Assembly (NCBI GenBank): GCA_038087875.1
Contig: CM075992.1
Span: 11,410,001 to 11,474,000, forward strand
Length of the DNA stretch: 64,000 nt
From: Malacoraja senta
Taxonomy: Eukaryota
Reading direction: 5' to 3'
A program made the translations under genes and the position numbers. This document shows positions 1-41,827 of this stretch, one piece after another (position 1 is the stretch's first letter; the number at the start of each line of letters is the position of its first letter). A model generated the notes under the pieces. That model was not told where the DNA came from. It saw only the letters and a program-made list of their open reading frames with translations, and ran no database searches.

Positions 1-1539
1 TGGGTGGCGATGGGGAATGGCTTTGCAGCTCACATGCACTCTTGTCATCATATTGTGTCACCAACCCAACAGCAGGCAAAAGCCAGTCTGGGACTTGCAC
101 CCTCTGCCAGCTTACGAACGCTAGCTGAGCTCCAGGGCCACATCTAGCCAAGGGCAGGGCAGTCATTGGATGCATTGAACACTAACTCAACTCTAAACCT
201 GCTAGACATCCACCCAGCCCATGTTGGACCCCAAGCAAACTCCTTCCAAACTCACGAGCACTCATTGATCTGTGCTGCCCGTGCTCACCTTCCGATGGCT
301 GAATCCTGGTTTGTCACCTTGCCAACCACTGTCCAATAGCCAACAATTAGAGGATCACCATATCAAGCAACCTTAAAGCCAGACGGACAACATCCCATCT
401 GCCCAGGGAGGTGCTTGAAATGAAAGGCAACTCTTCCATTCCCCAGAATCCAGGCTAGATGCTACCATGCTTATTATTGGACAGTCTGTTCAACAATGTA
501 GAAGCTATGAACTCCTGCTATGTACATGCTCAATAGAAGCAGAGAGCTGAAGCAGCTCAACTCTCAGCTGCAACTTCTTGCCTCTTTCTTCCGAAGTTTG
601 TAGCAAATTGAAACAGAGCGATGGAGGTAAGAATGGGGAGAGGGTGGCAGCAGCAATGGGGCAGTCCCAGTGGAGAGGCGAGTTACAGTCCCAAGCAAAG
701 AGAGTCAGTGCGCTGTTGCTCTTGTGCTCTGTGTCTCTCGCTTTAGAAGCAGCTGTAGCCGGCTCTGCAGGGCTCTCGTGCTTTCAATCACATTACTGTC
801 TCATGAACGTTTCTCGGGCCCTGTAAGGAAACAGACAAGACATCGAGATCAGAAACTAACCACATGGCAGCTTGTCGGGGCCAGGGCACCTGCTGGCTTT
901 GGCTGAGACAGCAGAGAACTAATGTTCTCACGAGCAGGACACCAGCACATCAGCCCTGCCAACCCCCACCATGGCACAGCCGGCAACACCACGAGAGCCA
1001 ACACAGACCATCACTGCACCTGGGGCTGTCTGAGGGGATAGATGGGGGCAAAGGGGTGAGGAGAGCGAGTGTCTTGGTGTGCGGGGAACAGTTTGTGGGT
1101 GCAGTGAGTGGCCGAATTGGAGGATGAATATTTGGGGGACACATGTTTACAGTTTGTGGGGGGGGTGTGAATGAGTGTGGGGGAGTGTGTGTGTCAGCAT
1201 GTGTGACACTGAGTGGGTGGATATATGGCCAATGATGCAGGTTTGTATGTGGGTGTGTGGGAGGCAGTGTATGGGCTAATGTGTGGGGAATGGGGTGGTG
1301 ATGCTGTGTAGCATGACAGTGTAACCTGATCTAGGCGGTGTGGGCCATGGCCGGGCCAATGAGTGGAGCATTGGTCAGATTCATTGGGATTTGGGTGGGT
1401 GAGTGCAGACTTGTGTACAATTGTAGGGTAGTGTGTGAATGGAGTGATCCCCTTACTCCAACAGCCACAGGACAATGTGACATTGTGGGTGTCAGAGAAC
1501 ATGCTGCAGATCCCTGGTAAAAGCAAAAACAATGACCAG

Positions 1540-1845
1540 GGAGGCACAGCACTGCAGCGGGTAGAGCCGCTGCCTCAGTGCCAGAGACCCGGGTTCGATC
1601 CTGACCTCAGGTGCTGTCTGTGTGAAATTTGGATGTTCTTCCTGTGACTGCATGGGTTTCCTCCGGGTGCTCCACTTTTCTCCCCGACCCAGACATGTTG
1701 GTTATTTGGCCGCTGTAAATTTGCCCTTAGTGTGTAGGGAGTGGATGCACAAATGGGATAACATAGAATATAGTATGAACGCGTGACCGATGGTCAGTAT
1801 GAAATCGGTGGGCCGAAGGGCCTGTTTCCTGCAGTATCTTTCAAT
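1540..1845 (+). mobile_element. tRNA-derived V-SINE (HE1-like); mirror copy at about 38320-38625 (-)
   Basis: B-box gggttcgatcc, V-domain-like gggtttcctccgggtgctcc, CR1-type 3' tail gggccgaagggcctgtttc. Confidence 0.8.
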
Positions 1846-2103
1846 TCTGTCAATCAAGATTGATTCTGGAAGATTCAGGTCCCCTCGAAGTGGATACTGC
1901 TAAAAACAGCCCATTTAAGTAAGAGATACAGGTGTAAACAGGCCACTTAATGGGTACATGTCCTGATACTAGTCCTTGTTATAGTCACGTGTACAGAGAT
2001 GTAGTGAGAAACGTAGTTGTGTGCTATTCAGTCACATCGCACTGTACATGAGTATAACCACTCCCCCATGACAGACACGGCACCAGACTAATCGTAACCA
2101 TAC

Positions 2104-2193
2104 CTGCGTCGATGAAGTTGACATCTCAGAGTATTTTGAGTCTTTCTTCAATCGGTACAAACGGTGGAAGAAGTTGGCGTACTCATCCCTCAC
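2104..2193 (-). CDS. ADGRE-like copy A, helix-8/C-tail exon (90 bp)
   Basis: VRDEYANFFHRLYRLKKDSKYSEMSTSSTQ; VR.EY follows NKQ as in adhesion GPCRs; tttcag/gtatgg sites. Confidence 0.85.
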
Positions 2194-3242
2194 CTGAAAG
2201 ACAAGGTGACATGGAGTGTTTACAATCCTGTCCACACCATTGCTAGTGGCCATTACATCAGGACTGTCCATGGAGTTTACAATCCAGGCCCCGAGCTGCT
2301 GGCTTCTGGCTGCCTCACTCTCATTGCCAAAGCACAAGGCAAGAGATCAGCACCAGGACAAAGGGTCACTCCAGCTTTATCTGCAGTGAGTGGGGTTGTC
2401 AGCCACAGCACCCAGGAAGTTCCTGCTCCAGTTTCCACCCCGCACCTGACACTGTTCTCAGTTCCACAACTGAACTCGGTATTGGTGGCCCATGGTTGTT
2501 AATATCTGCCAGACCCTGGAACTCTGTGGCATCTACAGATTCCTCTGTGATATTCAGCTGTGTAGATATTGTGGTTAATAATGTTGTCCATCATTGTCAT
2601 AGAGTCTAAGAAATGTGGAAACAGGCCATTCGGCCCACGATATCCATGCCAACCAGTGGGCACCAGTTTTTCCCTTGGTTTCCACAATGCCATTGGATCA
2701 CTTGATCAGGCAGCTTTATTAGACTTTGGTGAGGCAGCGTTTGGAGTATTGTGTGCATTTTCTTGTCTCCCCATTACACCAAGGATGTGGAGGCTTTGTA
2801 AAGTGTGCAAAGGAGGTTTACATGAAAGATGCCCTGATTAGGCAGTATTTGTTACAGGGAGAGGTAGGACAGACATTGCTTGTTATTTTGCTGGAGGTTG
2901 TGGGGAGACCTGATAGAAGTATATAAAATAATGAGAGGCATATATAGTGCAGACCGTCAGAAACTTTCTCCTAGGAGGGTAACATCAATTACTAGAGGGC
3001 AGAGCTTTAAGGTGAGAAGGGTAAAGTTTAAAGGAGATAGGGTGGTCAAGGACTTTGGTACATTGGCCTTCAACAGTCAGGGTATTGAGTATAGAAGTTG
3101 GAACATTATGTTAAAGTTGTACAACATGTTGGTGAGGCCACACTGTACTGTTTTCAATTTTGGTCACCCTGCTCTAGGAAGGAGGTCACTCAGCTGGAAA
3201 GAGTGCAGAGAAGATTTGCGAGGATATTGCTAGAACTTGAGT

Positions 3243-3563
3243 GGGATCAATCTTGTGAACCTACGCTGCACTGCCTCAATCACAAGGATGTCCTTCCTCA
3301 AATTAGGAGACCAAAACTGTACACAATACTCCAGATGTGGTCTTACCAGAGCCCTATACAACTGCAGAAGAACCTCTTTACTCCTATACTGAAATCCTCT
3401 TGTTATGAAGGCCAACATTCCATTAGCTTTCATCACTGCCTGCTGTACCTGCACGCCAACTTGCAGTGACTGGTGTACAAGGACACCCAGGTCTCGCTGC
3501 ACCTCCCCCTTACCTAACCTAACCCCATTGAGATAATAATCTGCCCCCTTGTTTTTGCCGCCG
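3243..3563 (-). mobile_element. CR1/HER1-type LINE RT fragment; mirror at about 36638-36958
   Basis: QRDLGVLVHQSL...LVRPHLEYCVQFWSP...VQRRFTRLIP, the CR1 ORF2 C-terminal signature. Confidence 0.9.
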
Positions 3564-4557
3564 AAGGGCCTGTTATGTGCTATAAGACTCTGAGATGTGC
3601 AAGTCAGATTTATTTACAAAAGAATGTGCTAAGTGTCTGGAATGAGTTGCTGGGTTTGGTGGTTCAGTCAGATACAATAGTGACATTTAAGAGCCTTTTG
3701 TATATGCACATGGATATGCAGGAAATGGAAACAAATGGACTATGTGAAGGCCGATCAGGGTTGGTCTTGGCAACATGTTTGGCACAGACTGTGAGCCGAA
3801 GGGCCTGTTCTTGTGCTGCACTGTTCTATATTCAATGTTAGTCAAAGAATCATACAGCGTATAAGCAGGTCCTTTGGCCCAACATACCCATGCCCCATCT
3901 ACATTAGTCCCACCTGCCTGCTTTTACAAACATCCCACTTTCTGAATGGTCCTTTTCCTTCAAACAACCTTCTCAAACCAACACGAGCAAGTTTCTGTCT
4001 AATTCCTTCAATGTTAGCCTTGCCCCAATTTAGGATTTTAACTCATGGGCTAACTCTATCCTTAACTAATCTAAACCTAATAGACAATGGCTGCTGGTGC
4101 CAAAAGGCTCATCCATGACCACTTCATCCACTTGTCCATTCCAATTACCGAAGACAAGATCAAGCATTGCCTTCTCTGCAGAAGGGCTCTCTTTATATTG
4201 CCGGAGGAAATGTTCCTGAATACATTTGACCAATTCTACCCTGTCTAAACCTTTTGCACTATGATATTCCCAGTTAATATTTGGAAAGTTAAAATCCCCT
4301 TCTATGAAAACTTTATTGGTCCTGCAGCTGCCATTTTCAATAAAGGCAGGCATAGCTGGGGCCTATGTGAATGCCCATGGCTATACCATTGATTTGAATC
4401 CATAATTCTGGTGACTGGTCACAACGTGCACGCCCACACAGGCCAGTCACTTGCCCAGCCTCATTCCCCAATGGAAGGTCCAGCATTGCCCTCTCTCTGG
4501 TTGGCCATCTACATACTGTTTGAGTAAACGTTGCTGAACAAATTCAAGGGGACTTAC

Positions 4558-4726
4558 CTGCTTGTTAAGGAGGCAGTGCAGGATGAAGATGAACATTCCT
4601 TGCATGCTGTTGATCACAGTGAAGATGTAAGCCATGACAATTGTTTCCTTCTGGAAGTGCAACATGCCAAATATCCAAGTACATCCCAGGATGCAGAGTT
4701 GAGCGACAGCAGTGAAGGTAAAGACC
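4558..4726 (-). CDS. ADGRE-like copy A, TM6-TM7 exon (169 bp)
   Basis: [56 protein letters not shown]; ttttag/gtaagt sites. Confidence 0.93.
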
Positions 4727-5236
4727 CTAAAACAAGACGCTCTTTCAATTATTTGTGTTGACTGGGTTAAAATCCAGAAATCCCCACCAAACCAAACAGT
4801 GAGACTTCAATGCACAGACTGCAGCGATAGAGATATCAGCCAGTCAGCTGATACAATAAGTGAGCCATGACTTGTGGCACACCAAACATCAAAGGATTTA
4901 TTGGAAAAGAAAAAATGATTATGTTGGCCTCTGCTGAGAAATGTTTGTTTCATACAGAATAATGCAAAACTGATTCATTCTCACACTGAGGTGTAACCAG
5001 AGAATGCCCATCCCCTAAACACATTCAGAAACCTCGACATACAACAGGACAGGAATGGCAACTGAGTGATTCACATGCTTGACCTTCCACGTGTGGTACC
5101 TAACCTATGACCCTGGAGCCGACAGTTCCTTCTATCTGATCCACACTATGGGAACGGGACAAGTGCTGGCCATTTGCATGACCTGGATACCGTATCAACC
5201 AAGGAAGGTACCAGCAGCCACACCAGTTGTTCTCAC

Positions 5237-5328
5237 CTGATTTTCTTCAACTGGCCCATATCAGGATTGACACTTGAAAACTTTTCAGCCAGTTTCAACA
5301 CAGTGATAATAAAAAATCCTCCATTGAC
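5237..5328 (-). CDS. ADGRE-like copy A, TM5-ICL3 exon (92 bp)
   Basis: VNGGFFIITVLKLAEKFSSVNPDMGQLKKIR resembles the CD97/EMR ICL3 (KL..KFS..NPDM..LKK.R); ag/gtgaga sites; in frame with neighbours. Confidence 0.9.
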
Positions 5329-5918
5329 CTTCCAAGAAAAGAAAAAGCCACATTATTCCGATTAAGATAGTGGTCTATTGAATTAATATTTTCTTGATGT
5401 TATCTTTAATTCATTTACATTTCCATAGAAACATCTAGCAGTGCATAAATAGTTGCATTTGGACATGTTTGCCTCTACATTGATCCTCAACATTCATTTT
5501 AAAATAGACAGTGATGTAGATATTACCGTAGTGTTCCATCAGCCCTGAGTGGATGACTTGAAATCTTCTCATATGCATTGTGAATCTGTAAATCTCTAAA
5601 GATTTATCATGAAAACCAGTAATAAAGGACATCATCTTTATCAATGCACTTTGGAGAATTGGAGAAACTTCATCCTATCTGATACTGCTAAATATTAATA
5701 TCCAAGATTACAGCACAAGTTAAACTGACACAAGTTCAGTAGCTGTCACCATACCAGATCTGTGCCATGCTCCAAGGCCCCTCTGTTCCTCCGCACTCAC
5801 CAAGACCCTGCCATTCATGGTTGATGTCCTATCATCATTAGTGGTTCCAAAACCCATCAGCTCACATTTTCCTGAATTCAACAGACATTCTCTCTGTTTC
5901 ATATTTTTCAAAACTTAC

Positions 5919-5985
5919 CAGAATAATCACACAGACCGGAGCCAGGAAAGCCCAGAGAAATCCCGACTTTAGATCCAACCAACAA
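5919..5985 (-). CDS. ADGRE-like copy A, ECL2-TM5 exon (67 bp)
   Basis: (Y)CWLDLKSGFLWAFLAPVCVIIL; phase matches the previous exon (TA+T=Tyr); ccccag/gtaagt sites. Confidence 0.92.
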
Positions 5986-6599
5986 CTGGGGAAAGAGGAA
6001 AAATGTTTTGTTTCCAAATGACACTGTAAAATGTTTACACTTTGCACACACACACACACACACGTACAGGTATGTTCCCACACCAGTAACATTACTGCTC
6101 AGACGGCCTCCCTGCCATGTGTGAGGCTCGGCAGGAATCGACTATTCCCGTCATGGGTACATTGCTACCTCACTCAATTCTGTGTGGACCCAGCTTGGCA
6201 TTGTTGGTCTTCATAATCATTATCATACTTTATTAGCCAAGTATGTTTTGCAACATACGAGGAATTTGATTTTGATTTACACAAGAGTGTGCTAAGTGTC
6301 TGGAATGAGTTGCCGGGTTCAATCCCTTCTTTGTTCTGCAGTCGGGGGCCTCGAGCCTTCTGATCTTTGTCCTTGTGCTGCAGGGAGTTGTGGCTGGGGT
6401 AGGGCTTTAACATTTTTAGCTCTATTCTTTCCCTTGATTATTGTTTAATGACCTTACCCCATCCATCTCCACTGCACCCCTCGTATCTGTCTCTCAGTCT
6501 CCCTATCCCACCCCAACTCACGCCCCCTGAGCTGGAGAGAGCCATGTGTGACCTCCTTGAGAACAAGTTGGGGCTGTTGGTGAAAGCTCTTGCTCCATC

Positions 6600-7968
6600 C
6601 CTGGTAGACTATATTTACAATATACAATATATATTAACGATTTAGACCAAGGAATTAAATGTAACATCTCCAAGTTTGTGGATGACACAAATCCCGGTAG
6701 CAGTGTGACTTGCGAGGGGGATGCTATGAGGCTGCAGGGTGACTTGGATAGGTTCGGTGAGTGGGCAGATGTAGTATAATGTGGATAAATGTGAGGTTAT
6801 CCACTTTGTTGGCAAAAACAAGAAGGCAGATTATCTGAATGGTGTCAGATTAGGAGAAGGGGAGATGCAACGAGACCTGGGTGTCCTTGTACATCAGTCA
6901 CTGAAAGTAAGCATGCAGGTACAGCAGGCAGTGAAGAAAGCAAATGGCATGTTGGCCGTCATAGCGAGAAGATTTGAGTATAGGAGCAAGTTGGTTCTAC
7001 TCCAGTTGTACAGGGCCATGGTGTATTGTGTGCAATTTTGGCCTTCTAATTTTGGGAAGGACATTCTTGCTATTGAGGGAGTGCAGTGTAGGTTCACCAG
7101 GTTAATTCCTAGGGTGGTGGGACTGACAGATGATGAAAGAAAGGATCGACTGGGCATATATTCACTGGAATTTAGAAGGTTGAGAGGGGATCTAATATGA
7201 AATTCTTAAGGGATTGGCCAGGCTAGATGTTGGGCAGTAGATTAGATTTTATTTCTTGTCATTTGAACCTCAAAGAGGCTCAAACGAAACTCCGTTTCCA
7301 CAGTGATGGAAGGCAAAATCTTTTCTCTCCCGTGCACCATTTTTCTCCCGATGTTGAAGCCCCAGGCGGGCAATGTTAAGTCCCACGGGAGGCCGCGCCG
7401 GGCGGTGTACTGCCTCGCTCCGGGCCCAAAAGTCACAAAGTTGGAGCCCCCGGCGGGCGTTGGAATATCCCGTGGCCATTAAAGCCGCGCCGGGCGATTT
7501 ATGGCCCCGCTCCGGGTTGTTCTAACCCCGCGCACGGGCGGGAGAAGTTGCGTTGCGGGAGCTCCGGAAAGTGGTCTCTCACCCGGACCCGTGAGCTCCC
7601 GATATCATAGTCCACAGGTCTGCAGCTGGAGCTCCGGAGTCGGGCCGCAGCAGGGGGAGTCCAGAACCAGGGGTCACAGTTTTAAAAAAAGAGGTAGTTC
7701 ATTTAGGACTGAGATGAGGAAAGACTTTTTCATCCAGAGAGTTGTGAATCTGTGGAATTCTCTGCTGCAGAAGGAAGTGGAGGCCAATTCACTGGATGTA
7801 TTCAAGAGAGAGTTGGATATAGCTCTTAGAGCTAATGGAACCAAGGGATATGGAGAGAAAGCAGGGATGGGGTTCTGATTCTGGATGATCAGCCATGCTC
7901 ATATTGAATGGCAGTGCTGGCTCGAAGGGCCGAATGGCCTACTCCTGCACCTATTTTCTTTGTTTCTA
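6600..7968 (+). mobile_element. CR1 LINE 3' part, interrupted by a GC-rich SINE-like insert at about 7242-7652; mirror at about 31760-33230
   Basis: SKFVDDTK, KCEVIHF, RDLGVLV motifs; 3' UTR ggctcgaagggccgaatggcctactcctgcacct. Confidence 0.88.
7242..7652 (-). mobile_element. GC-rich non-autonomous SINE-like retroelement fragment; mirror at about 32077-32570 (+)
   Basis: CpG-rich, no coding potential, ends aataaaatctaatct; shares the gccttccatcacagtgagg segment with 33520-33690. Confidence 0.6.
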
Positions 7969-8212
7969 GACAAACCATTGGAAGTTAATGTGCTGGTGCA
8001 GGGGTAGTCAGGATTTTGCCCATATGGACTTTAGCAAGACATTTGACAAAGCCCCACATGGTAGGCTGATCCAGAAGATTAAATTACATAGGCCACAGGC
8101 AAGCGGAACTATTGTAGCTGGGACATTGTTGGCCGGTTTAGGCGAGTTGGGCCGAAGGGTCTGTTTCCACACTGTTTCACCCTATGACTTTATGACTCTG
8201 TCTGGGGCATAG

Positions 8213-9013
8213 ATACATAGAAAATAGGTGCAGGAGGAAGCCATTCGGCCCTTCGAGCCAGCACCGCCATTCATTGTGATCATGGCTGATCGTCCCCTAT
8301 CAATAACACGTGCCTGCCTTCTCCCCATGTCCCTTGACTCCACTAGCCTCTAGAGCTCTATCTAACCCTCTCTTAAATCCATCCAGTGACTTGGCCTCCA
8401 CTGCCCTCTGTGGCAGGGAATTCCATAAATTCACAACTCTCTGGGTGAAAAAATGTTTCTCACCTCAGTCTTAAATGACCTCCCCTTTATTCGAAGACTG
8501 TGGCCCCTGGTTCTGGACTCGCCCCACATTGGGAAAATCTTTCCTGCATCTAGCTTGTCCAGTCCTTTTATAATTTTATATGTTTCTATAAGATTCCCCC
8601 TCATCCTTCTAAACTCCAGTGAATACAAGCCTAGTCTTTTCAATCTTTCCTCATATGACAGTCCCGCCATCCCAGGGATCAATCTCGTGAACCTACACTG
8701 CACTGCCTCAATCACAGGGATGTCCTTCCTCAAATTTGGAGACCAAAACTGTACACAATACTCCAGCTGTGGTCTCACCAGAGCCCTATACAACTGCAGA
8801 AGAACATCTTTACTCCTATACTGAAATCCTCTTGTTATGAAGGCCAACATTCCATTAACTTTCTTCACTGCCTGCTGTACCTGTAAGCCAACTTTCAGTG
8901 ACCGGTGTACAAGGACGCCCAGGTCTCGCTGCACCTCCCCCTTACCTATCCTAACCCCATTGAGATAATAATCTGCCCCCTTGTTTTTGCCGCCAAAGTG
9001 GATAACCTCACAT
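8213..9013 (-). mobile_element. 5'-truncated young CR1 LINE with 3' UTR; mirror at about 30720-31520
   Basis: 167-aa open RT C-terminus, 3' UTR and tttctatgt-type tail. Confidence 0.92.
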
Positions 9014-11471
9014 CACTGAAGGAGGCCTTCATCCCACCATGACTGTGCCGGTCATGATGAAAACATGAAAAATCCCATCTGTCTGTGCATGGTCTGCACC
9101 ATTCCCTATCTTCTCATGTATTTGTTTCAATGCCCATTAAACATGCTATCACATCTGCTTCCACCACCTCCCCTGCACAAAGTACCAGACACCCACCACA
9201 TGCTGTATATAAAGGAGATCTTTTGTGGGAACAGGTGACCAAAACTGAACACAATACTCTAACTGTCTTGTAACAATGTCTTGTACCACTGGATTTTTTA
9301 AAATAAACATCTTCTCTATCTATTATATCACCCAGTTTAGTGTCATCTACAAACTTACTCATCATGACTTCACAATTCTCTGGCGTGTCACTAGTCACAG
9401 ACCTCCATTCTGAATGAGAACCTTCCACCATCAAGATTCAAGATTCAAGATATTTTATTAGTCACATTCACATACACCCGGGTGTAGTGAAGTGAAATGC
9501 TTTTTGCCATTATCAGCACACAAAAAAGAGAAGAGAATACAGACACAACACCAAGATAGTCTTAACACTGAACATCCCCCCACAATGGCTCCCACCATGA
9601 GGGAAGGCACAAAGTCCAGTCCCCAACCCCAGGTGGGTTGAAGGCCTCTTTCAGTGATGTGAGGTTATCACCCTCTGCTTCCTTTCACAAAGCTAATTCT
9701 CTATCCAGTCAGTTGGCTCTCCCTGGATCCCATGTGATCTAATGATCCAGTGCAGCCTACTATGCAGAACCTCATCAAATCTCTTGCTGAAGCCAATGTA
9801 GACAATGTCTGTGGCTTTGCCCTTTTCAGCCTCTTTGATTACTTCAAAATATAAATCGATTGGTAAGTCACACTCTTCCATGTACCATGCTGAATAGCCC
9901 TGATTAGCCCCTGTCTAATGCATATATATCCTATCCCTCAGAATACTCTCTTCCTTCGAGCCCTTCTTAAATAGAGACACACCCTTCAGCCTTGCGGCAC
10001 CTCATCTGTGTGGTGAGGTGTTGGTACTCGAGGCCCTGAACTGTAGGGAATGGTTGAGCAGGCTAGATCTTTATTCCGTGAAACCCAGGAGGTGAAGGGG
10101 TGATCTTGTGGAGGTGTATGACATATGAGGGGAATAGGTAAGGTGAAAACATATCTAGAGTTTATCTAGAGTACGAGAATCAAGAACCAGGCAACATTTG
10201 TTTAAGGTGAGAAGGGAAAGATAGGAACCTGAGGGGACTTTTCACAGAGAGGGTGGTGGTTACATACAACGGCCTGAAAGAGTGGATAGTTGAGACAGGT
10301 ACTGTAATAAAATGTAAAAGACATTTAGACAGGTACATGGACAGGAGAGATGTGCCAAACATGGACAGGTTGGACTAGAGTAGATGGGGCATCTGGGTTG
10401 GCATGGGGTAGTTGGGCCGAAGGGCCTGTTTCTTTGCTGTATGACCCTCTGACTCTAATATCAAAGCACCCTCCTGAATCTCAACATCATCCATGCCCTT
10501 CCTCTTGGGGAATGCTAATGTTAAGTACACATTCAGGGCCTTGTCCATTTCTCTGGCTTCAGGCATAAATTCCCACCTGGAGTGGACCTACCGTTTTCCA
10601 AGTAACCCTTTCTCCTTACATACAAAATACCTGCAAACTCTCCTCGACCCTATTTTCCAAGCTTCTTTTACTCCTCCTAATTTCTTGTTTAAGTGTTTTC
10701 CTGATTTCTTCGTATTTCTCAGGAACCATGACTGATTTCTGTTCCTTTGATGGTGGGCCAAAGGTCCCATTTCTGTGCAAGGATAGTATTTCCCCTGGCA
10801 ACCAGGGATCATAATTAGAGTGGCTAATGAAACTGTTGCCTCAGTTCCAGAGACCTGGGTTTGATCCCGACTTTGGGTGAAGCCTTTGTGGAGTTTGCAC
10901 GTTCCACCTAAATCCACGCAAATCCCCTTTGGGTTCTGCAGTCTCCATCAACATCCCAAACACGTGTAGGTTGATAGGTAGCTGTAAATTATCCCATGAA
11001 TGATAGCATAGAACATGGAACAGTACAATATAGGAATGGGACTTGGGGATCTGGAGCAGTTGATGGAAATTTTGGGAAGAGAAAGAGGGATCAGTGTAGG
11101 ATTGGGATAAATGGGTGCTTGATGGTTGACCTCATGGGATGAAGGGCCTGTTCCCATGCTGCATGTGGAGATGGGAAGAAATATCTTCACTTAGTGGGTG
11201 GAGAACCTTTGCAATCCTCTCCCCAAGTGGGTTTTGCAGGCTCAGTCGCTGAGTGTTTTCAGACAGAGATGGATATGAAGGATATGGGGAAAATAGGGTC
11301 AGTGCAAAAAAATGGTCCTGAGGTTGTAGGTTGGTCATAGTCCAACTGAATGTTAGAATAGGTGCAAGGGGTCAAATGGCCTCCTCCGTCAACCATGTTT
11401 ATTCCTGTCACAGAAACTCAATGTGCTCCGAGTGCAATGTCTGCAAAAAAATCTGCAGTTTTCGTACTTAC

Positions 11472-11692
11472 TACTTGTCTGTTCCATATCCCTGGGAAAA
11501 CACGGCTGCTGAGATGCCAACAGTAATCAGGGGGCAACCGTAGCCAAACAAGTACATGTACGTTGGTCTCAGACTCTTTGCATTGAAGACTTTCACCAGC
11601 ATGAGGTAAAGCTGCACACCTTCCAGGAGCATCCAGGAAAAACAGGACAGGAAGAAATAATGCAGGAATCCAGCGATGACGGCACAAAGAGT
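11472..11692 (-). CDS. ADGRE/CD97-like adhesion GPCR copy A, TM3-TM4 exon (221 bp)
   Basis: [29 protein letters not shown]...[23 protein letters not shown]; secretin/adhesion 7TM motif HYFFL..F.WM..EG..LY; cag acceptor, gtaagt donor. Confidence 0.93.
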
Positions 11693-11749
11693 CTGGAAGT
11701 GATGCAAGAGAACAACAAGGGATTAATGAGCCTGAGCTGGGCTGCACAG

Positions 11750-11893
11750 GGTGGTAAACTGGCTGGTTCACTGGGTCGATTTACTGGGCCTGTGCGCTGA
11801 GTCAGTATATTGGGTTGGTATACTGGGCCGGTATACTAGGTCATTACACTGGATCAGTGCACTGGGCCAGGACACTTGGTTGGTTGTACACTG
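11750..11893. repeat. Degenerate ~13-bp minisatellite (actgggccggtat-like); mirror at about 27823-27965
   Basis: Recurrent actggg..g.t.t units immediately upstream of the TM3 exon acceptor. Confidence 0.65.
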
Positions 11894-12375: not shown

Positions 12376-12413
12376 TAGGTAACGTTTCGGGCCGAAACCC
12401 TTCTTCAGACCCT
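12376..12413 (-). ncRNA. Minimal hammerhead ribozyme motif (Penelope-type), opposite strand
   Basis: Minus strand reads gggt-CTGAAGA-A-GGGT(TTCG)GCCC-GAAA-CG-TT-acct; stem I gggt/acct. Confidence 0.68.

Positions 12414-17560: not shown

Positions 17561-17591
<31 letters not shown>
17385..17591. repeat. Poly-C low-complexity tract at contig end
   Basis: About 200 C with sporadic A directly after the gap. Confidence 0.95.
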
Positions 17592-31200: not shown

Positions 31201-33916
31201 CCAATGTGGGGCGAGTCCAGAACCAGGGGCCACAGTCTTCGAATAAAGGGGAGGTCATTTAAGACTGAGGTGAGAAACATATTTTCACCCAGAGAGTTGT
31301 GAATTTATGGAATTCCCTGCCGCAGAGGGCTGTGGAGGCCAAGTCACTGGATGGATTTAAGAGAGAGTTAGATAGAGCTCTAGAGGCTAGTGGAGTCAAG
31401 GGATATGGGGAGAAGGCAGGCATGTGTTATTGATAGGGGACGATCAGCCATGATCACAATGAATGGCGGTGCTGGCTCGAATGGCCGAATGGCTTCCTCC
31501 TGCACCTTTCTATGTATCTATGCCCCAGACAGAGTCATAAAGTCATAGGGTGAAACAGTGTGGAAACAGACCCTTCGACCCAACTCGCCTAAACTGGCCA
31601 ACAATGTCCCAGCTACAATAGTTCTGCTTGCCTGTGGCCTATGTAATTTAATCTTCTGGATCAGCCTACCATGTGAGGCTTTGTCAAATGTCTTGCTAAA
31701 GTCCATATGGGCAAAATCCTGACTGCCCCTGCACCAGCACATTAACTTCCAATGGTTTGTCTAGAATCAAAGAAAATAGGTGCAGGAGTAGGCCATTCGG
31801 CCCTTCGAGCCAGCACTGCCATTCAATATGAGCATGGCTGATCATCCAGAATCAGAACCCCATCCCTGCTTTCTCCCCATATCCCTTGGTTCCATTAGCT
31901 CTAAGAGCTATATCCAACTCTCTCTTGAATACATCCAGTGAATTGGCCTCCACTTCCTTCTGCAGCAGAGAATTCCACAGATTCACAACTCTCTGGATGA
32001 AAAAGTCTTTCCTCATCTCATTCCTAAATGAACTACATCTTTTTCTTCAACTGTGACCCCTGGTTCTGGACTCCCCCTGCTGCGGCCCGACTCCGGAGCT
32101 CCAGCTGCAGACCTGTGGACTATGATATCGGGAGCTCGCGGGTCTGTGGTGAGAGACCACTTTCCGGAGCTCCCGCAACGCAACTTCTCCCGCCCGTGTC
32201 GCGGGGTTGGAACGACCTGGAGCGGGGCCATAAATCGCCCGGCGCGGCTTTAATGGCCGCGGGATATTCCAACGCCCGCCGGGGGCTCCAACTTTGTGAC
32301 CTTTGGGCCCGGAGCGAGGCAGTACACCGCCCGGCGCGGCCTCCCGTGGGACTTAACATTGCCAGCCTGGGGCTTCAACATCGGGAGAAAAATGGTGCAG
32401 GGGAGAGAAAAGATTTTGCCTTCCATCACAGTGAGGAGGAGATTCACTGTGATGGATGTTTTTCTGTAAATTGAATTGTTTGTGTGTCGTGTAGGAATTG
32501 TTTTGTTTGTATGGCTGTTGAAACGGAGTTTCGTTTGAGGTTCAAATGACAAGAAATAAAATCTAATCTACTGCCCAACATCGGGAACATTTCTCCTGCA
32601 TCTAGCCTGGCCAATCCCTTAAGAATTTCATATAAGATCCCCTCTCAACCTTCTAAATTCCAGTGAATATATGCCCAGTCAATCCTATCTTTCATCATCT
32701 GTCAGTCCCACCACCCTAGGAATTAACCTGGTGAACCTACACTGCACTCCCTCAATAGCAAGAATGTCCTTCCCAAAATTAGAAGGCCAAAATTGCACAC
32801 AATACACCATGGCCCTGTACAACTGGAGTAGAACCAACTTGCTCCTATACTCAAATCTTCTCGCTATGAAGGTCAATATGCCATTTGCTTTCTTCACTGC
32901 CTGCATTACCTGCATGCTTACTTTCAGTAACTGATGTACAAGGGCACCCAGGTCTCGTTGCATCTCCCCTTCTCCTAATCTGACACCATTCAGATAATCT
33001 GCCTTCTTGTTTTTGCCATCAAAGTAGATAACCTCACATTTATCCACATTATACTGCATCTGCCCACTCACCCAACCTATCCAAGTCACCCTGCAGCTTC
33101 ATAGCATCCCCCTCGCTGGTCACACTGCTACCGAGATTTGTGTCATCCACAAACTTGGAGATGTTACATTTAATTCCTTGGTCTAAATCGTTAATATATA
33201 TTGTATATTGTAAATATAGTCTACCAGGGATGGAGCAAGAGCTTTCACCAACAGCCCCAACTTGTTCTCAAGGAGGTCACACATGGCTCGCTCCAGCTCA
33301 GGGGGGGGTGAGTTGGGGTGGGATAGGGAGACTGAGAGACACATATGAGGGGTGCAGTGGAGATGGATGGGGTAAGGTCATTAAACAATAATCAAGGGAA
33401 AGAATAGAGCTAAAAATGTTAAAGCCTTCCCCAGCCACAACTCCCTGCAGCACAAGGACAAAGATCAGAAGGCTCGAGGCCCCCGACTGCAGGAGAACAA
33501 AGAAGGGATTGAACTTTTTTTTCGCCTTCCATCACAGTGAGGAATGTGGAGGAGTCACTGTGGTGGATGTTTATGTTAAAATGTCTTTTGTGTGTCTCGG
33601 TGATTTTTATTGGTATGACTGTATGGCAAATCAAATTCCTCATATGTTGCAAAACATACTTGGCTAATAAAGTATGATAATGATTATGAAGACCAACAAT
33701 GCCAAGTTGGGTCCACACAGAATTGAGTGAGGTAGCAATGTACCCATGACGGGAATAGTCGATTCCTGCCGAGCCTCACACATGGCAGGGAGGCCGTCTG
33801 AGCAGCAATGTTACTGGTGTGGGAACATACCTGTACGTGTGTGTGTGTGTGTGTGTGCAAAGTGTAAACATTTTACAGTGTCATTTGGAAACAAAACATT
33901 TTTCCTCTTTCCCCAG

Positions 33917-33983
33917 TTGTTGGTTGGATCTAAAGTCGGGATTTCTCTGGGCTTTCCTGGCTCCGGTCTGTGTGATTATTCTG
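33917..33983 (+). CDS. ADGRE-like copy B, ECL2-TM5 exon (67 bp)
   Basis: (Y)CWLDLKSGFLWAFLAPVCVIIL; identical to copy A. Confidence 0.92.
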
Positions 33984-34571
33984 GTAAGTTTTGAAAAATA
34001 TGAAACAGAAAATGTCTGTTGAATTCAGGAAAATGTGAGCTGATGGGTTTTGGAACCACTAATGATGATAGGACATCAACCATGAATGGCAGGGTCTTGG
34101 TGAGTGTGGAGGAACAGAGGGGCCTTGGAGCATGGCACAGATCTGGTATGGTGACAGCTACTGAACTTGCGTCAGTTTAACTTGTGCTGTAATCTTGGAT
34201 ATTAATATTTAGCAGTATCAGATAGGATGAAGTTTCTCCAATTCTCCAAAGTGCATTGATAAAGATGATGTCCTTTATCACTGGTGTTCATGATAAATCT
34301 TTAGAGATTTACAGATTCACAATGCATATGAGAAGATTTCAAGTCATCCACTCAGGGCTGATGGAACACTATGGTAATATCTACATCACTGTCTATTTTA
34401 AAATGAATGTTGAGGATCAATGTAGAGGCAAACATGTCCAAATGCAACTATTTATGCACTGCTAGATGTTTCTATGGAAATGTAAATTAATTAAAGATAA
34501 CATCAAGAAAATATTAATTCAATAGACCACTATCTTAATCGGAATAATGTGGCTTTTTCTTTTCTTGGAAG

Positions 34572-34663
34572 GTCAATGGAGGATTTTTTATTATCAGTGT
34601 GTTGAAACTGGCTGAAAAGTTTTCAAGTGTCAATCCTGATATGGGCCAGTTGAAGAAAATCAG
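34572..34663 (+). CDS. ADGRE-like copy B, TM5-ICL3 exon (92 bp)
   Basis: VNGGFFIISVLKLAEKFSSVNPDMGQLKKIR; canonical splice sites. Confidence 0.9.
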
Positions 34664-35473
34664 GTGAGAACAACTGGTGTGGCTGCTGGTACCTTCCTTG
34701 GTTGATACGGTATCCAGGTCATGCAAATGGCCAGCACTTGTCCCGTTCCCATCCTTTTCCCATTATTCACATGAAACTGCTGATGCTGACATGTCGTAGA
34801 GTCATACCGCATGGAAACAGGCCCTTTGGCCCAAGTCCATGCTGACCAAGATGCCCCACCTAAGCCATTCCCGTTTGCTGTTCTGATTTGGGATTCACGC
34901 ACTGATAGCTGGGCCCTTTCCAAACTTACCAAAAGGGGAAATAACATCAGGCAGATAGTGTGGATCAGATAGAAGGAACTGTCGGCTCCAGGGTCATAGG
35001 TTATGTACCACACGTGGAAGGTCAAGCATGTGAATCTCTCAGTTGCCATTCCTGTCCTGTTGTATGTCGAGGTTTCTGAATGTGTTTAGGGGGTGGGCAT
35101 TCTCTGGTTACACATCAGTGTGAGAATGAATCAGTTTTGCATTATTCTGTTTGAAACAAACATTTCTCAGCAGAGGCCAACATAATCATTTTTTCTTTTC
35201 CAATAAATCCTTTGACGTTTGTTGTGCCACAAGTCATAGCTCACTTATTGTATCAGCTGACTGGCTGATATCTCTATCGCTGCAGTCTGTGCATTGAAGT
35301 CTCACTGTTTGGTTTGATGGGGATTTCAGGATTTTAACCCAGTCAACACAAATAATTGAAAGAGGATCTAGAAGCAGCAGGAAGTTTATATTACACCTTA
35401 AAGTATGCACTGTAGTGAGTGACACAAATTAAAGTATTGTCTTGCATTCAGCTTCTTGTGCCTCTTGTTTTAG

Positions 35474-35642
35474 GGTCTTTACCTTCACTGCTGTCGCTCA
35501 ACTCTGCCTCCTGGGATGTACTTGGATATTTGGCATGTTGCACTTCCAGAAGGAAACAATTGTCATGGCCTACATCTTCACTGTGATCAACAGCATGCAA
35601 GGAATGTTCATCTTCATCCTGCACTGCCTCTTTAACAAGCAG
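35474..35642 (+). CDS. ADGRE-like copy B, TM6-TM7 exon (169 bp)
   Basis: [20 protein letters not shown]...[15 protein letters not shown]; ttttag/gtaagt sites. Confidence 0.93.
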
Positions 35643-37971
35643 GTAAGTCCCCTTGAATTTGTTCATCAACGTTCACTCAAACAGTATGTAGATGGCCAAC
35701 CAGAGAGAGGGCAACACTGGACGTTCCATTGGGGAATGAGGCTGGGCAAGTGACTGGCCTGTGTGGGCGAGCACGTTGTGACCAGTCACCAGAATTATGG
35801 ACTCAAATCAACGGTATAGCCATGGGCATTCACATAGGCCCCAGCTATTCCTGCCTTTATTGAAAATGGCAGCTGCAGGACCAATAAAGTTTTCATAGAA
35901 GGGGAATTTAACTTTCCAAATATTAACTGGGAATATCATAGAGCAAAAGGTTTAGACAGGGTAGAATTGGTCAAATGTATTCAGGAACATTTCCTCCGGC
36001 AATATAAAGAGAGCCCTTCTCCAGAGAAGGCAATGCTTGATCTTGTCTTTGGTAATTGGAATGGACAAGTGGATGAAGTGGTCATGGATGAGCCTTTTGG
36101 GACCAGCAGTCATTGTCTATTAGGTTTAGATTAGTTAAGGATAGAGTTAGCCCATGAGTTAAAATCCTAAATTGGGGCAAGGCTAACATTGAAGGAATTA
36201 GACAGAAACTTGCTCGTGTTGGTTTGAGAAGGTTGTTTGAAGGAAAAGGACCATTCAGAAAGTGGGATGTTTGTAAAAGCAGGCAGGTGGGACTAATGTA
36301 GATGGGGCATGGGTATGTTGGGCCAAAGGACCTGCTTATACGCTGTATGATTCTTTGACTAACATTGAAGATAGAACAGTGCAGCACAAGAACAGGCCCT
36401 TCGGCTCACAGTCTGTGCCAAACATGTTGCCAAGACCAACCCTGATCGGCCTTCACATAATCCATTTGTTTCCATTTCCTGCATATCCATGTGCATATAA
36501 AAAAGGCTCTTAAATGTCACTATTGTATCTGACTGAACCACCAAACCCGGCAACTCATTCCAGACACTTAGCACATTCTTGTGTAAATAAATCTGACTCG
36601 CACATCTCAGAGTCTTATAGCACATAACAGGCCCTTCGGCGGCAAAAACAAGGGGGCAGATTATTATCTCAATGGGGTTAGGTTAGGTAAGGGGGAGGTG
36701 CAGCGAGACCTGGGTGTCCTTGTACACCAGTCACTGCAAGTTGGCGTGCAGGTACAGCAGGCAGTGAAGAAAGCTAATGGAATGTTGGCCTTCATAACAA
36801 GAGGATTTCAGTATAGGAGTAAAGAGGTTCTTCTGCAGTTGTATAGGGCTCTGGTAAGACCAGATCTGGAGTATTGTGTACAGTTTTGGTCTCCTAATTT
36901 GAGGAAGGACATCCTTGTGATTGAGGCAGTGCAGCGTAGGTTCGCAAGATTGACCCCACTCAAGTTCTAGCAATATCCTCGCAAATCTTCTCTGCACTCT
37001 TTCCAGCTGAGTGACCTCCTTCCTAGAGCAGGGTGACCAAAACTGAAAACAGTAGTGTGGCCTCACCAACATGTTGTACAACTTTAACATAATGTTCCAA
37101 CTTCTATACTCAATACCCTGACTGTTGAAGGCCAATGTACCAAAGTCCTTGACCATCCTATCTCCTTTAAACTTTACCCTTCTCACCTTAAAGCTCTGCC
37201 CTCTAGTAATTGATGTTACCCTCCTAGGAGAAAGTTTCTGACGGTCTGCACTATATATGCCTCTCATTATTTTATATACTTCTATCAGGTCTCCCCACAA
37301 CCCCTCCCTGTATCTAATACTCCCTAATCAGGGCATCTTTCATGGAAACCTCCTTTGCACACTTTACAAAGCCTCCACATCCTTGGTGTAATGGGGAGAC
37401 AAGAAAATGCACACAATACTCCAAGCGCTGCCTCACCAAAGTCTAATAAAGCTGCCTGATCAAGTGATCCAATGGCATTGTGGAAACCAAGGGAAAAACT
37501 GGTGCCCACAGGGTGGCATGGATATCGTGGGCCGAATGGCCTGTTTCCACATTTCTTAGACTCTATGACAATGATGGACAACATTATTAACCACAATATC
37601 TACACAGCTGAATGTCACAGAGGAATCTGTAGATGCTACAGAGTTCCAGGGTCTGGCAGATATTAACAACCATGGGCCACCAATACTGAGTTCAGTTGTG
37701 GAACTGAGAACAGTGTCAGGTGCGGGGTGGAAACTGGAGCAGGAACTTCCTGGGTGCTGTGGCTGACAAATCCACTCACTGCAGATAAAGCTGGAGTGAC
37801 CCTTTGTCCTGGTGCTGATCTCTTGCCTTGTGCTTTGGCAATGAGAGTGAGGCAGCCAGAAGCCAGCAACTCGGGGCCTGGATTGTGAACTCCATGGACA
37901 GCCCTGATATAACGGCCACTAGCAATGGTGTGGACAGGATTGTAAACACTCCATGTCACCTTGTCTTTCAG

Positions 37972-38061
37972 GTGAGGGATGAGTACGCCAACTTCTTCCA
38001 CCGTTTGTACCGATTGAAGAAAGACTCAAAATACTCTGAGATGTCAACTTCATTGACGCAG
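37972..38061 (+). CDS. ADGRE-like copy B, helix-8/C-tail exon (90 bp)
   Basis: VRDEYANFFHRLYRLKKDSKYSEMSTSLTQ; canonical splice sites. Confidence 0.85.
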
Positions 38062-39374
38062 GTATGGTTACGATTAGTCTGGTGCCGTGTCTGTCATGGG
38101 GGAGTGGTTGTACTCGTGTACAGTGTGATGTGACTGAATAGCACACAACTACGTTTCTCACTACATCTCTGTACACGTGACTATAATAAGGACTAGTATC
38201 AGGACATGTACCCATTAAGTGGCCTGTTTACACCTGTATCTCTTACTTAAATGGGCTGTTTTTAGCAGTATCCACTTCGAGGGGACCTGAATCTTCCAGA
38301 ATCAATCTTGATTGACAGAATTGAAAGATACAGCAGGAAACAGGCCCTTCGGCCCACCGATTTCATACTGACCATCGGTCACGCGTTCATACTATATTCT
38401 ATGTTATCCCATTTGTGCATCCACTCCCTACACACTAAGGGCAAATTTACAGCGGCCAATTAACCAACATGTCTGGGTCGGGGAGAAAAGTGGAGCACCC
38501 GGAGGAAACCCATGCAGTCACAGGAAGAACATCCAAATTTCACACAGACAGCACCTGAGGTCAGGATCGAACCCGGGTCTCTGGCACTGAGGCAGCAGCT
38601 CTACCCGCTTCACTGCTGTGCCTCCCTGGTCATTGTTTTTTCTTTTACCAGGGATCTGCAGCACATTCTCTGACACCCACAATGTCACATTGTCCTGTGG
38701 CTGTTGGAGTAAGGGGATCACTCCATTCACACACTACCCTACAATTGTACACAAGTCTGCACTCACCCACCCAAATCCCAATGAACCTGACCAATGCTCC
38801 ACTCATTGGCCCGGCCATGGCCCACACCGCCTAGATCAGGTTACACCGTCGTGCTACACAGCATCACCAGCCATTCCCCACACATTAGCCCATACACTGC
38901 CTCCCACACACCCACATACAAACCTGCATCATTGGCCATATATCCACCCACTCAGTGTCACACATGCTGACACACACACTCCCCACACTAGTTCACACAC
39001 TCCCCCCCCCACAAACTGTAAACATGTGTCCCCCAAATATTCATCCTCCAACTCGGCCACGCACTGCACCCACAAACTGTTCCCCTCACACCAAGACACT
39101 CGCTCTCCTCACCCTTTGCCCCCATCTATCCCCTCAGACAGCCCCAGGTGCAGTGATGGTCTGTGTTGGCTCTCGTGGTGTTGCCGGCTGTGCCATGGTG
39201 GGGGTTGGCAGGGCTGATGTGCTGGTGTCCTGCTCGTGAGAACATTAGTTCTCTGCTGCCTCAGCCAAAGCCAGCAGGTGCCCTGGCCCAGACAAGCCGC
39301 CACGTGGTTAGTTTCTGATCTCGATGTCTTGTCTGCTTCCTCACAGGGCCCGAGAAGCGTTCATGAGACAGTAA

Positions 39375-40222
39375 AGTAAAGTAAAGTAAAGTAAGTTTAT
39401 TTATATAGCGCCTTTCAATCAGATTACTGAAACCAAAGCGCTTTACAGACAATTAACCACACAAATAAAAAATAAAAAGGTAGAATAAAAAAGACACGAC
39501 ACACTATTTAGAGATTCAACATGAACATCCCCCCACAGCAGAGTCGACACTCTCCACCATGAGGGAAAGGCACCAAAGTGTCCAGTCCTCCTCCTAGTCC
39601 ACCCGAGATCGGGGCCAGTCTGAGGGCTCCGCAGCCAGTCGCCGCAACGGCAGCCCGATGTTGTAGGCCCCACCCGCCGGGAAGCTGGAACACCGGCATC
39701 GGGTGGAAAGTCCTCAATGGCTTGGAAGTGTCTGGAGGGGCCGCTCCCTCCCCGGAGACTGCGACGCCCGTAGTCCTCAGGCCGCGCCGGTTGGAGCTTC
39801 GACTCTGACTCCGCGGTGTTTTCGACCCAGTGCCGCCCGCCCGCGGCAGGACGCCCTCAGACCGCAGCCCGCGGCTGCTCGATGTTGGTGGTCGGCGGTC
39901 ACAGCACTCCGGAGCGGCGACCCGGCAAGGCATCGCCTGCTCCGTGTTGGTGTCCCAGCGCTGCGCCGCCGAAGCTGTGGTCCCCCGGCAGGAAACGCCG
40001 CTCCAGCCCGATGGAAGGCCGCATGGGGAGACCGGAGATGCGATTTGGAGGAAAACCGCATCTCCGACCAGGTAGGACTGGGGTTAAAACAGTTCCCCCC
40101 CCCCCACATAGAAAGAATAGACTCCCAAAAAAAATAATGTTTTAGACAATAAAAAAGTTAGAGGACGGACTGCAGGCAGGCGGCCATACAAACGGCGCCC
40201 ACTCCTGCACATCCGCCATCTT
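39375..40222 (-). mobile_element. GC-rich non-autonomous retroelement, right arm only
   Basis: Absent at the equivalent left-arm site (about 792). Starts aagatggcgg, ends aataaa plus (tttac)n; shares cctacctggtcggag.tgcgg with 51817-52682. Confidence 0.8.
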
Positions 40223-41827
40223 GTGAGTGAAAGCACGAGAGCCCTGCAGAGCTGGCTACAGCTGCTTCTAAAGCGAGAGACACAGAGCACAAGAGCAACA
40301 GTGCACTGACTCTCTTTGCTTGGGACTGTAACTCGCCTCTCCACTGGGACTGCCCCATTGCTGCTGCCACCCTCTCCCCATTCTTACCTCCATCGCTCTG
40401 TTTCAATTTGCTACAAACTTCGGAAGAAAGAGGCAAGAAGTTGCAGCTGAGAGTTGAGCTGCTTCAGCTCTCTGCTTCTATTGAGCATGTACATAGCAGG
40501 AGTTCATAGCTTCTACATTGTTGAACAGACTGTCCAATAATAAGCATGGTAGCATCTAGCCTGGATTCTGGGGAACAGAAGAGTTGGCTTTCACTTCAAG
40601 CACCTCCCTGGGCAGATGGGATGATGTCCGTCTGGCTTTACGGTTGCTTGATTTGGTGATCCTCTAATTGTTGGCTATTGGACAGTGGTTGGCAAGGTGA
40701 CAAACCAGGATTCAGCCATCGGAAGGTGAGCACGGGCAGCACAGGTCAATGAGTGCTCGTGAGTTTGGAAGGAGTTTGCTTGGGGTCCAACATGGGCTGG
40801 GTGGATGTCTAGCAGGTTTAGAGTTGAGTTAGTGTTCAATGCATCCAATGACTGCCCTGCCCTTGGCTAGATGTGGCCCTGGAGCTCAGCTAGCGTTCGT
40901 AAGCTGGCAGAAGGTGCAAGTCCCAGACTGGCTTTTGCCTGCTGTTGGGTTGGTGACACAATATGATGACAAGAGTGCATGTGAGCTGCAAAGCCATTCC
41001 CCATCGCCGCCCATCATTATTTGGAGCTTTTCAAGAGCCAACAAAAAGCAGGTTGTAAATGCCACTGACAACCACATCTCCTGATTGGTTCGGGACATGT
41101 GAGACACAGATGAGCTTCTCTCTCTAGGCAGAATCGAGGGTGAAAGGCCGAAGGGTAAGAAAGCTTGGAGAGGACACACCAGTCACCAGGTAAGATGCCA
41201 GAGTCTGGCCCAGGCCGCTGCTCAGCCCTGAGTCAGGCCCAGTGCAAGTTCCTCAGCAGAGAATCACCACGAGGCAGCCTTCACATGGGACCCCATCTCC
41301 TCCCGGTTCCCTCCAGCCCCTCGGCACCATCTAATAACCGTCACCATTGAGTGATACCCACCACCATCTCACCACCACATTATCTGGGTGGAGTGGTTCA
41401 TGGATGGACCTCCCATTGTCACCCTCTCAAAGACAGTGTGGGATGGAACACTCAACCCTGCCTTTGCCTGAGGCTGATGAATGAAAATGCAGCCAGTGCT
41501 GAGCATGGCTGTGGTTCCCAGTGCCCCGGGTTTGCCCTGTAACTGCCGCAGGTGAGACAAAGGAGGTTTCACCGGCTCATACGGAGGAAGCAGGAAGGGC
41601 AAGCTGGTTACACCTTGTTACTGTGTACTGATACATGGAAATGCAAACTTTTTAAATATGCCAGGCCTTTATTTAATAAAAGTATCATCCTGATCTGTGG
41701 GTCTTGTTAATATGTTCACATTCCTCTTTTAATAATAATTTCTCATAACTTGTAAGAAGGTGTGGTCTAAACGTGAAATATTCAAAGCGTTACTGAGCAA
41801 GGGCGGTTTAGACCAAATGTGCCTGGG

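What the first reader, a model, noticed from the sequence alone, without database searches (positions are those of the whole stretch)
1..41013. At least 17-kb-armed inverted duplication carrying a head-to-head pair of ADGRE-like receptor genes, with an assembly gap near its centre
Seen: the arms are collinear reverse complements with scattered SNPs (12 differences in 639 coding bp by my count), insertions private to each arm and deletions in both directions. Known: ADGRE/EGF-TM7 leukocyte receptors occur in duplicated clusters, and haplotype false duplications typically sit at scaffold gaps. Inference: this is either a recent palindromic paralogue pair, prone to arm-to-arm gene conversion and inversion and able to form long dsRNA on read-through, or two alleles mis-joined. 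The gap makes the artefact explanation a serious alternative.
Basis: partly seen in the sequence, partly recalled or inferred. Interest (0 to 1): 0.7.

Follow-up and report, generated by a model that had tools for sequence, protein, structure and literature searches.

The report
Skate receptor palindrome, likely assembly join
Two 98%-identical back halves of a skate immune-cell receptor gene face each other across an assembly gap, both missing their front halves at that gap, so the apparent palindrome is more likely an assembly join of two matching contig ends than a real chromosome structure.

Summary
The arms are in the sequence: 1-17184 mirrors 41013-22787 at 1.9-2.3% substitutions plus 38 indels. 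But they do not carry a pair of genes. Each holds only the last six exons (TM3 to C-terminus, 223 aa) of a skate ADGRE-like receptor. No EGF, GAIN/GPS or TM1-2 exon lies anywhere in the 64 kb. The left arm stops exactly at the 200-N gap, inside a decayed DIRS-like element; the right contig starts with 207 bp of poly-C. Both contigs end in the same intron, 5.4 kb apart. Divergence is flat along the arms (p=0.41), far from the >99% of conversion-maintained palindromes. Most likely (0.67) two homologous contig ends were scaffolded nose to nose: alleles (about 0.37; little-skate heterozygosity is 1.6%) or mis-joined paralogues (about 0.30; relatives carry several copies, pN/pS 0.93). A real head-to-head pair with both gene heads missing from the gap (0.18) or a fold-back of headless copies (0.12) is not excluded. 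No run found holds more than 0.52 of the words and all are short contigs, so the junction was not tested.

The parts
1..17184 (+). Left arm (open at the window start; ends at the gap)
22787..41013 (-). Right arm, reverse complement of the left arm
17185..17384 (.). Assembly gap, exactly 200 N (a round placeholder size; inference)
17385..17591 (+). Poly-C start of the right contig, 197 C and 10 A
17592..22786 (.). Spacer seen once: retroelement scraps, an L1 ORF1-like fragment (18323-18772) and the rest of the DIRS-like element
18284..23784 (-). Decayed DIRS-like tyrosine-recombinase retrotransposon in the intron before the TM3 exon; 39-nt inverted ends 18284-18322 / 23746-23784; ORFs broken by stops and frameshifts
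   Evidence: Pfam Phage_integrase E 9.4e-5 (below cut-off); RVT_1 E 0.026
16186..17184 (+). First 1 kb of the same DIRS-like insertion in the left arm, cut by the gap
11472..11692 (-). Left copy, TM3-TM4 exon (first exon present)
5919..5985 (-). Left copy, ECL2-TM5 exon
5237..5328 (-). Left copy, TM5-ICL3 exon
4558..4726 (-). Left copy, TM6-TM7 exon
2104..2193 (-). Left copy, tail exon
788..820 (-). Left copy, last coding exon with stop
28025..28245 (+). Right copy, TM3-TM4 exon (first exon present)
33917..33983 (+). Right copy, ECL2-TM5 exon
34572..34663 (+). Right copy, TM5-ICL3 exon
35474..35642 (+). Right copy, TM6-TM7 exon
37972..38061 (+). Right copy, tail exon
39347..39379 (+). Right copy, last coding exon; last residue and stop come from the inserted element
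39375..40221 (-). 847-bp insertion private to the right arm, with an (AGTAA)n end; probably a truncated retroelement (inference)
12268..12508 (.). 241-bp insertion private to the left arm, with a 16-bp target-site duplication

Best explanation
The palindrome is made by scaffolding. Two contigs each carry the 3' half of a skate ADGRE-like gene and each ends in the same large intron (between the TM1-2 and TM3-4 exons), at or 5.4 kb short of a long poly-G/C tract (shown). The tract probably starves long-read coverage and breaks contigs there (inferred). Because both ends belong to the same kind of locus, a scaffolder joined them end to end, which necessarily draws an inverted repeat centred on the gap (inferred). 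The two halves are either the two alleles of one gene (about 0.37 overall) or two recent paralogues of a multi-copy cluster placed in the wrong order or orientation (about 0.30 overall). The missing EGF/GAIN/TM1-2 halves would lie on other contigs. As receptor, a complete gene would work like ADGRE: EGF-mediated adhesion, GAIN autoproteolysis, tethered-agonist signalling through the 7TM; none of the first three parts is in the window.
For: Arm match runs to the last base before the N run and stops mid-ORF. Right contig opens with 207 bp poly-C; HiFi dropout is reported at long A/G- or T/C-rich low-complexity sequence (PMC7545148, passages). Both copies lack everything upstream of TM3, with only 5.5 kb (left) and 10.6 kb (right) of repeat-filled intron up to the gap, whereas most relatives are 600-900 aa with GPS and EGF domains. 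Gaps between duplicated pairs on one scaffold are a listed mark of false duplications, which are enriched where heterozygosity is 1.5-1.8 times that of correctly assembled regions (PMC9516828, passages). Little-skate heterozygosity is 1.56-1.6% (PMC10115646, passages), so 1.9% fits alleles. Contigs of two other samples (X1, X2) are 2.0% and 1.8% from the right arm over spans where the left arm is 2.3% and 2.7% away, so the left arm is no closer to the right arm than other animals are. Divergence is uniform (chi2 17.7, df 17, p 0.41) with no trend toward the centre (Spearman 0.20, p 0.43). For the paralogue branch: 6 ADGRE-like models in Rhinoraja, 3 in Amblyraja, 2 in Leucoraja among the clusters read, differing within species by 4-18 residues against 9 of 213 here.
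Against: Nothing tested the junction: no run held more than 0.52 of 967 words, all 4 runs laid were short contigs and the stretch laid (22000-41900) did not include the gap. No genome is held, so the left contig cannot be followed. The 10 non-synonymous to 3 synonymous differences (pN/pS 0.93; P 0.011 under omega 0.2, 0.06 under 0.3) are awkward for two healthy alleles and also fit two headless pseudogenes. A 17-kb half-depth overlap would often be purged (own knowledge; the pipeline is unknown). The sequencing platform is unknown, so the dropout cause is assumed. One search for a paper describing inverted haplotype joins gave 2 papers and no passage that I read describes this geometry.
Confidence: 0.67

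Rival explanations
1. A real head-to-head pair of recent ADGRE-like paralogues. The 200-N placeholder hides a large central block with the rest of the left DIRS-like copy, both 5' halves and both promoters, which broke off at poly-G/C tracts and is unplaced.
For: The family is multi-copy in skates. Contig depths in organism A are 9-21 (X1) and 98-215 (X2) on the 16 pieces listed, with minor contigs near 3-5 and 22-54, and X1's contigs total only 1,233 million letters against 2,132 for X2 of the same organism; this hints at several near-identical copies, though the tool states that depth is no copy number. Both frames are open over 223 codons with all GT-AG sites kept. Mammalian EMR2/CD97/EMR3 are cited as evolving in concert (PMC2720389, passages).
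Against: Needs two whole gene heads absent from the scaffold while their flanks are joined. No conversion signal between the arms. Nothing links the arms physically.
Confidence: 0.18
2. A real fold-back inverted duplication of a 5'-truncated gene copy, centred on or near the G/C homopolymer, leaving two headless pseudogenes that have drifted neutrally since.
For: pN/pS 0.93 and coding divergence (13 of 666, 2.0%) equal to the arm-wide 1.9%. Several changes hit columns otherwise constant among the 14 skate rows (A16S, L139I left; K34N, L41R, T105S, L180F right). An element sits in the right copy's last exon. The two copies are sisters in the tree (92/88, not strongly supported).
Against: No stop, frameshift or splice loss in either copy, where neutral decay would give about a one-in-eight chance of none (rough hand estimate from the substitution and indel rates). 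The truncation coincides with an assembly gap, which explains it without a mutation. Only 13 coding differences, so the ratio is loose.
Confidence: 0.12
3. A palindrome held together by ongoing arm-to-arm gene conversion, like those of mammalian sex chromosomes.
For: Arms over 10 kb with a small spacer; one 449-bp identical run, longer than 99.5% of 5,000 simulations.
Against: Identity is about 98% with large private indels, uniform along the arm; such palindromes are described as over 99% or 99.9% identical (abstract starts of PMC8981503 and PMC3723533).
Confidence: 0.03

Closest known systems
Heterotype false duplication (Ko et al. 2022, PMC9516828; passages read)
   Same: Two diverged copies on one scaffold with a gap between them; partial gene duplicated; divergence near or above the species-level heterozygosity known for a skate.
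   Different: Here the copies are inverted, with both contig ends in the same intron; 'inverted' does not occur in that paper's main text. Half depth and one-copy k-mers could not be tested.
ADGRE (EGF-TM7) adhesion GPCRs of skates, e.g. XP_078285495.1, XP_078285657.1, XP_078285490.1 (Rhinoraja longicauda), XP_032906737.1 (Amblyraja radiata)
   Same: TM3 to tail 8-14 of about 212 residues different from the three closest Rhinoraja models; same exon order; multi-copy family.
   Different: No signal peptide, EGF, GAIN/GPS, Stachel or TM1-2 in the window; right copy ends in an inserted element.
Mammalian X/Y palindromes with arm-to-arm conversion
   Same: Long inverted arms around a short spacer.
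   Different: 98% rather than over 99% identity, private insertions, no complete gene, centre is an assembly gap.
DIRS1-like retrotransposons
   Same: Inverted ends, about 5.5 kb, RT-like then recombinase-like pieces in order.
   Different: Heavily decayed; Pfam hits below cut-off; a passenger in the intron rather than the cause of the duplication.

Membership tests
ADGRE/EGF-TM7 receptor | Secretin-class 7TM region closest to ADGRE-annotated proteins | tested here: met
   Pfam 7tm_2 E 9e-22; top hits are skate ADGRE-like models at 89-92%. TM3-TM7 only.
ADGRE/EGF-TM7 receptor | GAIN domain with GPS and tethered agonist before TM1 | tested here: not met
   No exon in the 64 kb; may lie beyond the gap.
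ADGRE/EGF-TM7 receptor | N-terminal EGF-like repeats | tested here: not met
   No exon in the 64 kb; may lie beyond the gap.
ADGRE/EGF-TM7 receptor | Orthology to a particular mammalian ADGRE1-5 | not tested
   The tree held cartilaginous-fish rows only.
Heterotype false duplication | Gap between duplicated pair on one scaffold | tested here: met
   200 N at the exact end of the left arm.
Heterotype false duplication | Half read depth and one-copy k-mers on both copies | not testable with these tools
   No run holding the stretch nearly whole among 21 listed; best share 0.52.
Heterotype false duplication | Copy-specific variants segregate as alleles | tested here: inconclusive
   Of 40 rows shown (569 not shown), 19 carry the left-arm letter, 18 differ from both arms where the arms agree, 1 is a third letter, 2 lie outside the arm; at 27418 X1 has the left letter and X2 the right. 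Fits alleles or paralogues.
Conversion-maintained palindrome | Arm identity above 99% | tested here: not met
   97.7-98.1% plus 38 indels.
Conversion-maintained palindrome | Both arms on one molecule in inverted orientation | not testable with these tools
   No long reads on offer.
DIRS1-like retrotransposon | Inverted terminal repeats | tested here: met
   39 nt, 90% complementary, 5,423 nt apart.
DIRS1-like retrotransposon | RT and tyrosine recombinase ORFs | tested here: inconclusive
   Phage_integrase E 9.4e-5 and RVT_1 E 0.026, both below cut-off; methyltransferase-like piece recognised from recall only, no Pfam hit.
DIRS1-like retrotransposon | Internal complementary region | not tested
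   Not looked for.

The most novel reading that the evidence does not exclude
The palindrome is real: a fold-back at a G/C homopolymer duplicated a headless ADGRE-like 3' half, and the skate ADGRE cluster turns over by such homopolymer-seeded inverted duplications, leaving TM3-TM7-only copies with open frames.
Probability: 0.12. Interest if true: 0.5.

Novelty: not a real feature. Interest (0 to 1): 0.15.

Why it matters
If the best reading holds, the value is practical: ADGRE gene counts and 'truncated' models in skate assemblies are unreliable, because contigs can break in one intron at a poly-G/C tract (two Leucoraja models sit on 135-kb and 159-kb contigs and several skate models are partial). 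If the orientation is real, it is one more inverted paralogue pair in a family known for duplication. Only the fold-back reading would say something new about how this cluster turns over.

Tried and rejected
Whole-genome look-up: none held. Motif scan for GPS/EGF exons: no match in a credible exon; confirmed by tblastn and profile slices. ORF 12116-12358 as a possible GAIN exon: no Pfam hit; it overlaps the private insertion. Sequencing runs: no RNA holder listed; X21 covered 13 of 30 bins and its 8 listed pieces lie in repeat fragments, so it gave nothing on expression. Joints and loose ends were swamped by repeats (11,689 and 14,662 rows not shown), so presence of the arm-specific insertion junctions in other animals could not be read; listed contigs of X1/X2 run across 27451 without the left insertion, keep the 96-bp segment, and one leaves the stretch at 40222, which shows the empty forms exist and not that the insertions are absent. 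Gene-conversion gradient: none. Tree: left and right are sisters at 92/88 only, skate branches largely open; P0001 was left out of the tree because its model is aberrant in this region, as were P0005, P0008, P0011, P0015, P0017-P0019. The pN/pS of 0.63 used a wrong frame for the last exon and is replaced by 0.93. Earlier findings: 3 look-ups answered, all empty. One paper search on ADGRE with cartilaginous fish or shark listed 20 of 3,206 papers, none by title on ADGRE clusters in skates; that is one search of an open-licence library, not proof of absence. PMC9605692 gave no heterozygosity passage. Supplements were not opened for any paper.
Full report
Observation. Self-BLAST shows seven collinear inverted blocks joining 1-17184 to 41013-22787 at 94-99% identity. 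A global alignment gives 382 substitutions in 16,881 columns and 38 indels, or 301 in 15,683 (1.92%) after masking misaligned patches. The only N run, exactly 200 bases, starts one base after the last matching base of the left arm. The contig to its right opens with 207 bases of almost pure C. The left arm is open at the window start and no genome is held, so its full length is unknown.

What the arms carry. Each arm has six exons with intact GT-AG sites encoding 223 residues, from TM3 to the stop, of a secretin-class 7TM receptor. The best database matches to the first exon are ADGRE-like models of skates (Rhinoraja, Leucoraja, Amblyraja; 89-92%), followed mostly by rays and sharks. Over the five larger exons the left copy is 8-11 residues from the three closest Rhinoraja models, the right copy 11-14. 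Most of those relatives are 600-900 residues long with GPS and EGF domains. None of that upstream part is in the window. tblastn with 19 relatives found only TM3-onward exons. Seventeen profile slices covering residues 180-540 of a 767-residue relative gave no hit better than E 0.02 in 2,951 six-frame segments, while all 11 slices reaching beyond 540 hit both arms strongly. From the first exon to the gap there are 5.5 kb on the left and 10.6 kb on the right, filled with repeats. The 'head-to-head pair' has no heads.

The centre. The intron holds a decayed DIRS-like element with 39-nt inverted ends at 18284-18322 and 23746-23784 and broken RT-like and recombinase-like frames (hits below cut-off). 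The right contig contains the whole element, 0.7 kb of repeat scraps and the poly-C. The left contig contains the same insertion at the same site and stops 1 kb into it. Read in gene direction, both contigs end upstream in the same intron, 5.4 kb apart. Long low-complexity A/G- or T/C-rich tracts are reported to deplete HiFi coverage (PMC7545148, passages); that this caused the break here is inference, since the platform is unknown.

How the palindrome most likely arose. Two homologous contigs that end at the same obstacle and are joined at those ends give an inverted repeat centred on the gap. That geometry is my inference; I found no passage describing it. Gaps between duplicate pairs on one scaffold are a listed mark of false duplication, and such regions are 1.5-1.8 times more heterozygous than correctly assembled ones (PMC9516828, passages). 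The pattern of divergence gives no help to a converting palindrome: it is uniform over 18 bins (p 0.41), shows no trend toward the centre (p 0.43), and has a single over-long identical run of 449 bp (P 0.005). Converting palindromes are described as over 99% identical (abstract starts).

Alleles or paralogues. For alleles: the little skate is 1.56-1.6% heterozygous (PMC10115646, passages). The left arm holds 0.505 of the right arm's 31-mers in 26900-36000, the same share as the two best runs, X1 and X2 (0.52, 0.50). Their listed contigs differ from the right arm by 51 of 2,534 and 45 of 2,497 bases, where the left arm differs by 57 of 2,433 and 64 of 2,401; a more distant organism (X3) differs by 89 of 2,470 (one X2 piece running past the arm and two beyond it were left out). 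For paralogues: the clusters read hold 6 Rhinoraja, 3 Amblyraja and 2 Leucoraja models, 4-18 residues apart within species against 9 of 213 here, though some of those models could themselves be alleles. Contig depths in X1-X3 are several times those of minor contigs at the same places, a hint of several copies that the tool warns is no copy number. The coding differences are 10 non-synonymous to 3 synonymous (pN/pS 0.93), pointing to relaxed constraint. Of the 40 variant rows shown, 19 carry the left letter and 18 separate both arms from the other animals, so the arms share some derived changes, as alleles or species-specific duplicates both would. I put alleles at 0.37 and mis-joined paralogues at 0.30.

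Real-palindrome readings. A true head-to-head pair whose central block is missing from the gap (0.18) fits the open frames and the multi-copy family but needs two gene heads to be unplaced. A fold-back that left two headless pseudogenes (0.12) fits the neutral-looking ratio, the changes at otherwise constant columns and the insertion in the right copy's last exon, but neither copy has a stop, frameshift or lost splice site. None of the four runs laid could test the junction: all were short contigs and the stretch laid did not include the gap.

Comparison and verdict. The sequence works like the C-terminal part of an ADGRE receptor; membership of a complete gene fails on GAIN and EGF within this window and stays open beyond it. 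aGPCR copy-number change by local duplication is already described (PMC13197933, passages), as is concerted evolution of EMR2 with CD97 and EMR3 (PMC2720389, passages citing it). The inverted arrangement is more likely than not a product of assembly. Earlier notes of this scan held nothing on it. Interest 0.15.

Noticed in passing
window 39347-39379 (+) and 39375-40221: The 847-bp insertion lands on the last codon of the right copy; its (AGTAA)n end supplies a new last residue (K for M) and a stop, so the frame stays the same length.
   Followed up: partly
window 42862-45831 (-): 989-codon open frame with RVT_1 (E 2e-40); an L1-like ORF2 lacking its start, apparently young.
   Followed up: no
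window 51185-51816 and 52685-53366: Two arrays of an 18-bp unit (35 and 38 copies) that read open in several frames, flanking a piece 70% like the right arm's private insertion (51956-52525).
   Followed up: no
window 49987-51076 and 60478-61552: Two retroelement copies (RVT_1 in the first), 93% identical, in inverted orientation about 9.4 kb apart.
   Followed up: no
window 62327-64000 (+): A second DIRS-like element, 72% like the intron copy over 500 bp (RVT_1 E 0.00026).
   Followed up: no
window 53453-56181 (+) and 58670-59755 (-): Broken LINE-like RT frames (RVT_1 E 2e-24) and a Gypsy-like RNase H fragment (RT_RNaseH E 9e-14).
   Followed up: no
window 37611-37750 (+) and 2415-2554 (-): The odd C-terminus of Rhinoraja model P0001 matches intron sequence here at 77-90%, so introns are conserved between these skates and that model probably mis-splices.
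   Followed up: no
window 21409-22103: A 0.6-kb A+T-rich insert with inverted ends and a 14-bp tandem unit lies inside the DIRS-like element.
   Followed up: no
window, left run starting near 9528: 449-bp stretch identical between arms, longer than expected (P 0.005); a possible short conversion or recombination tract.
   Followed up: partly
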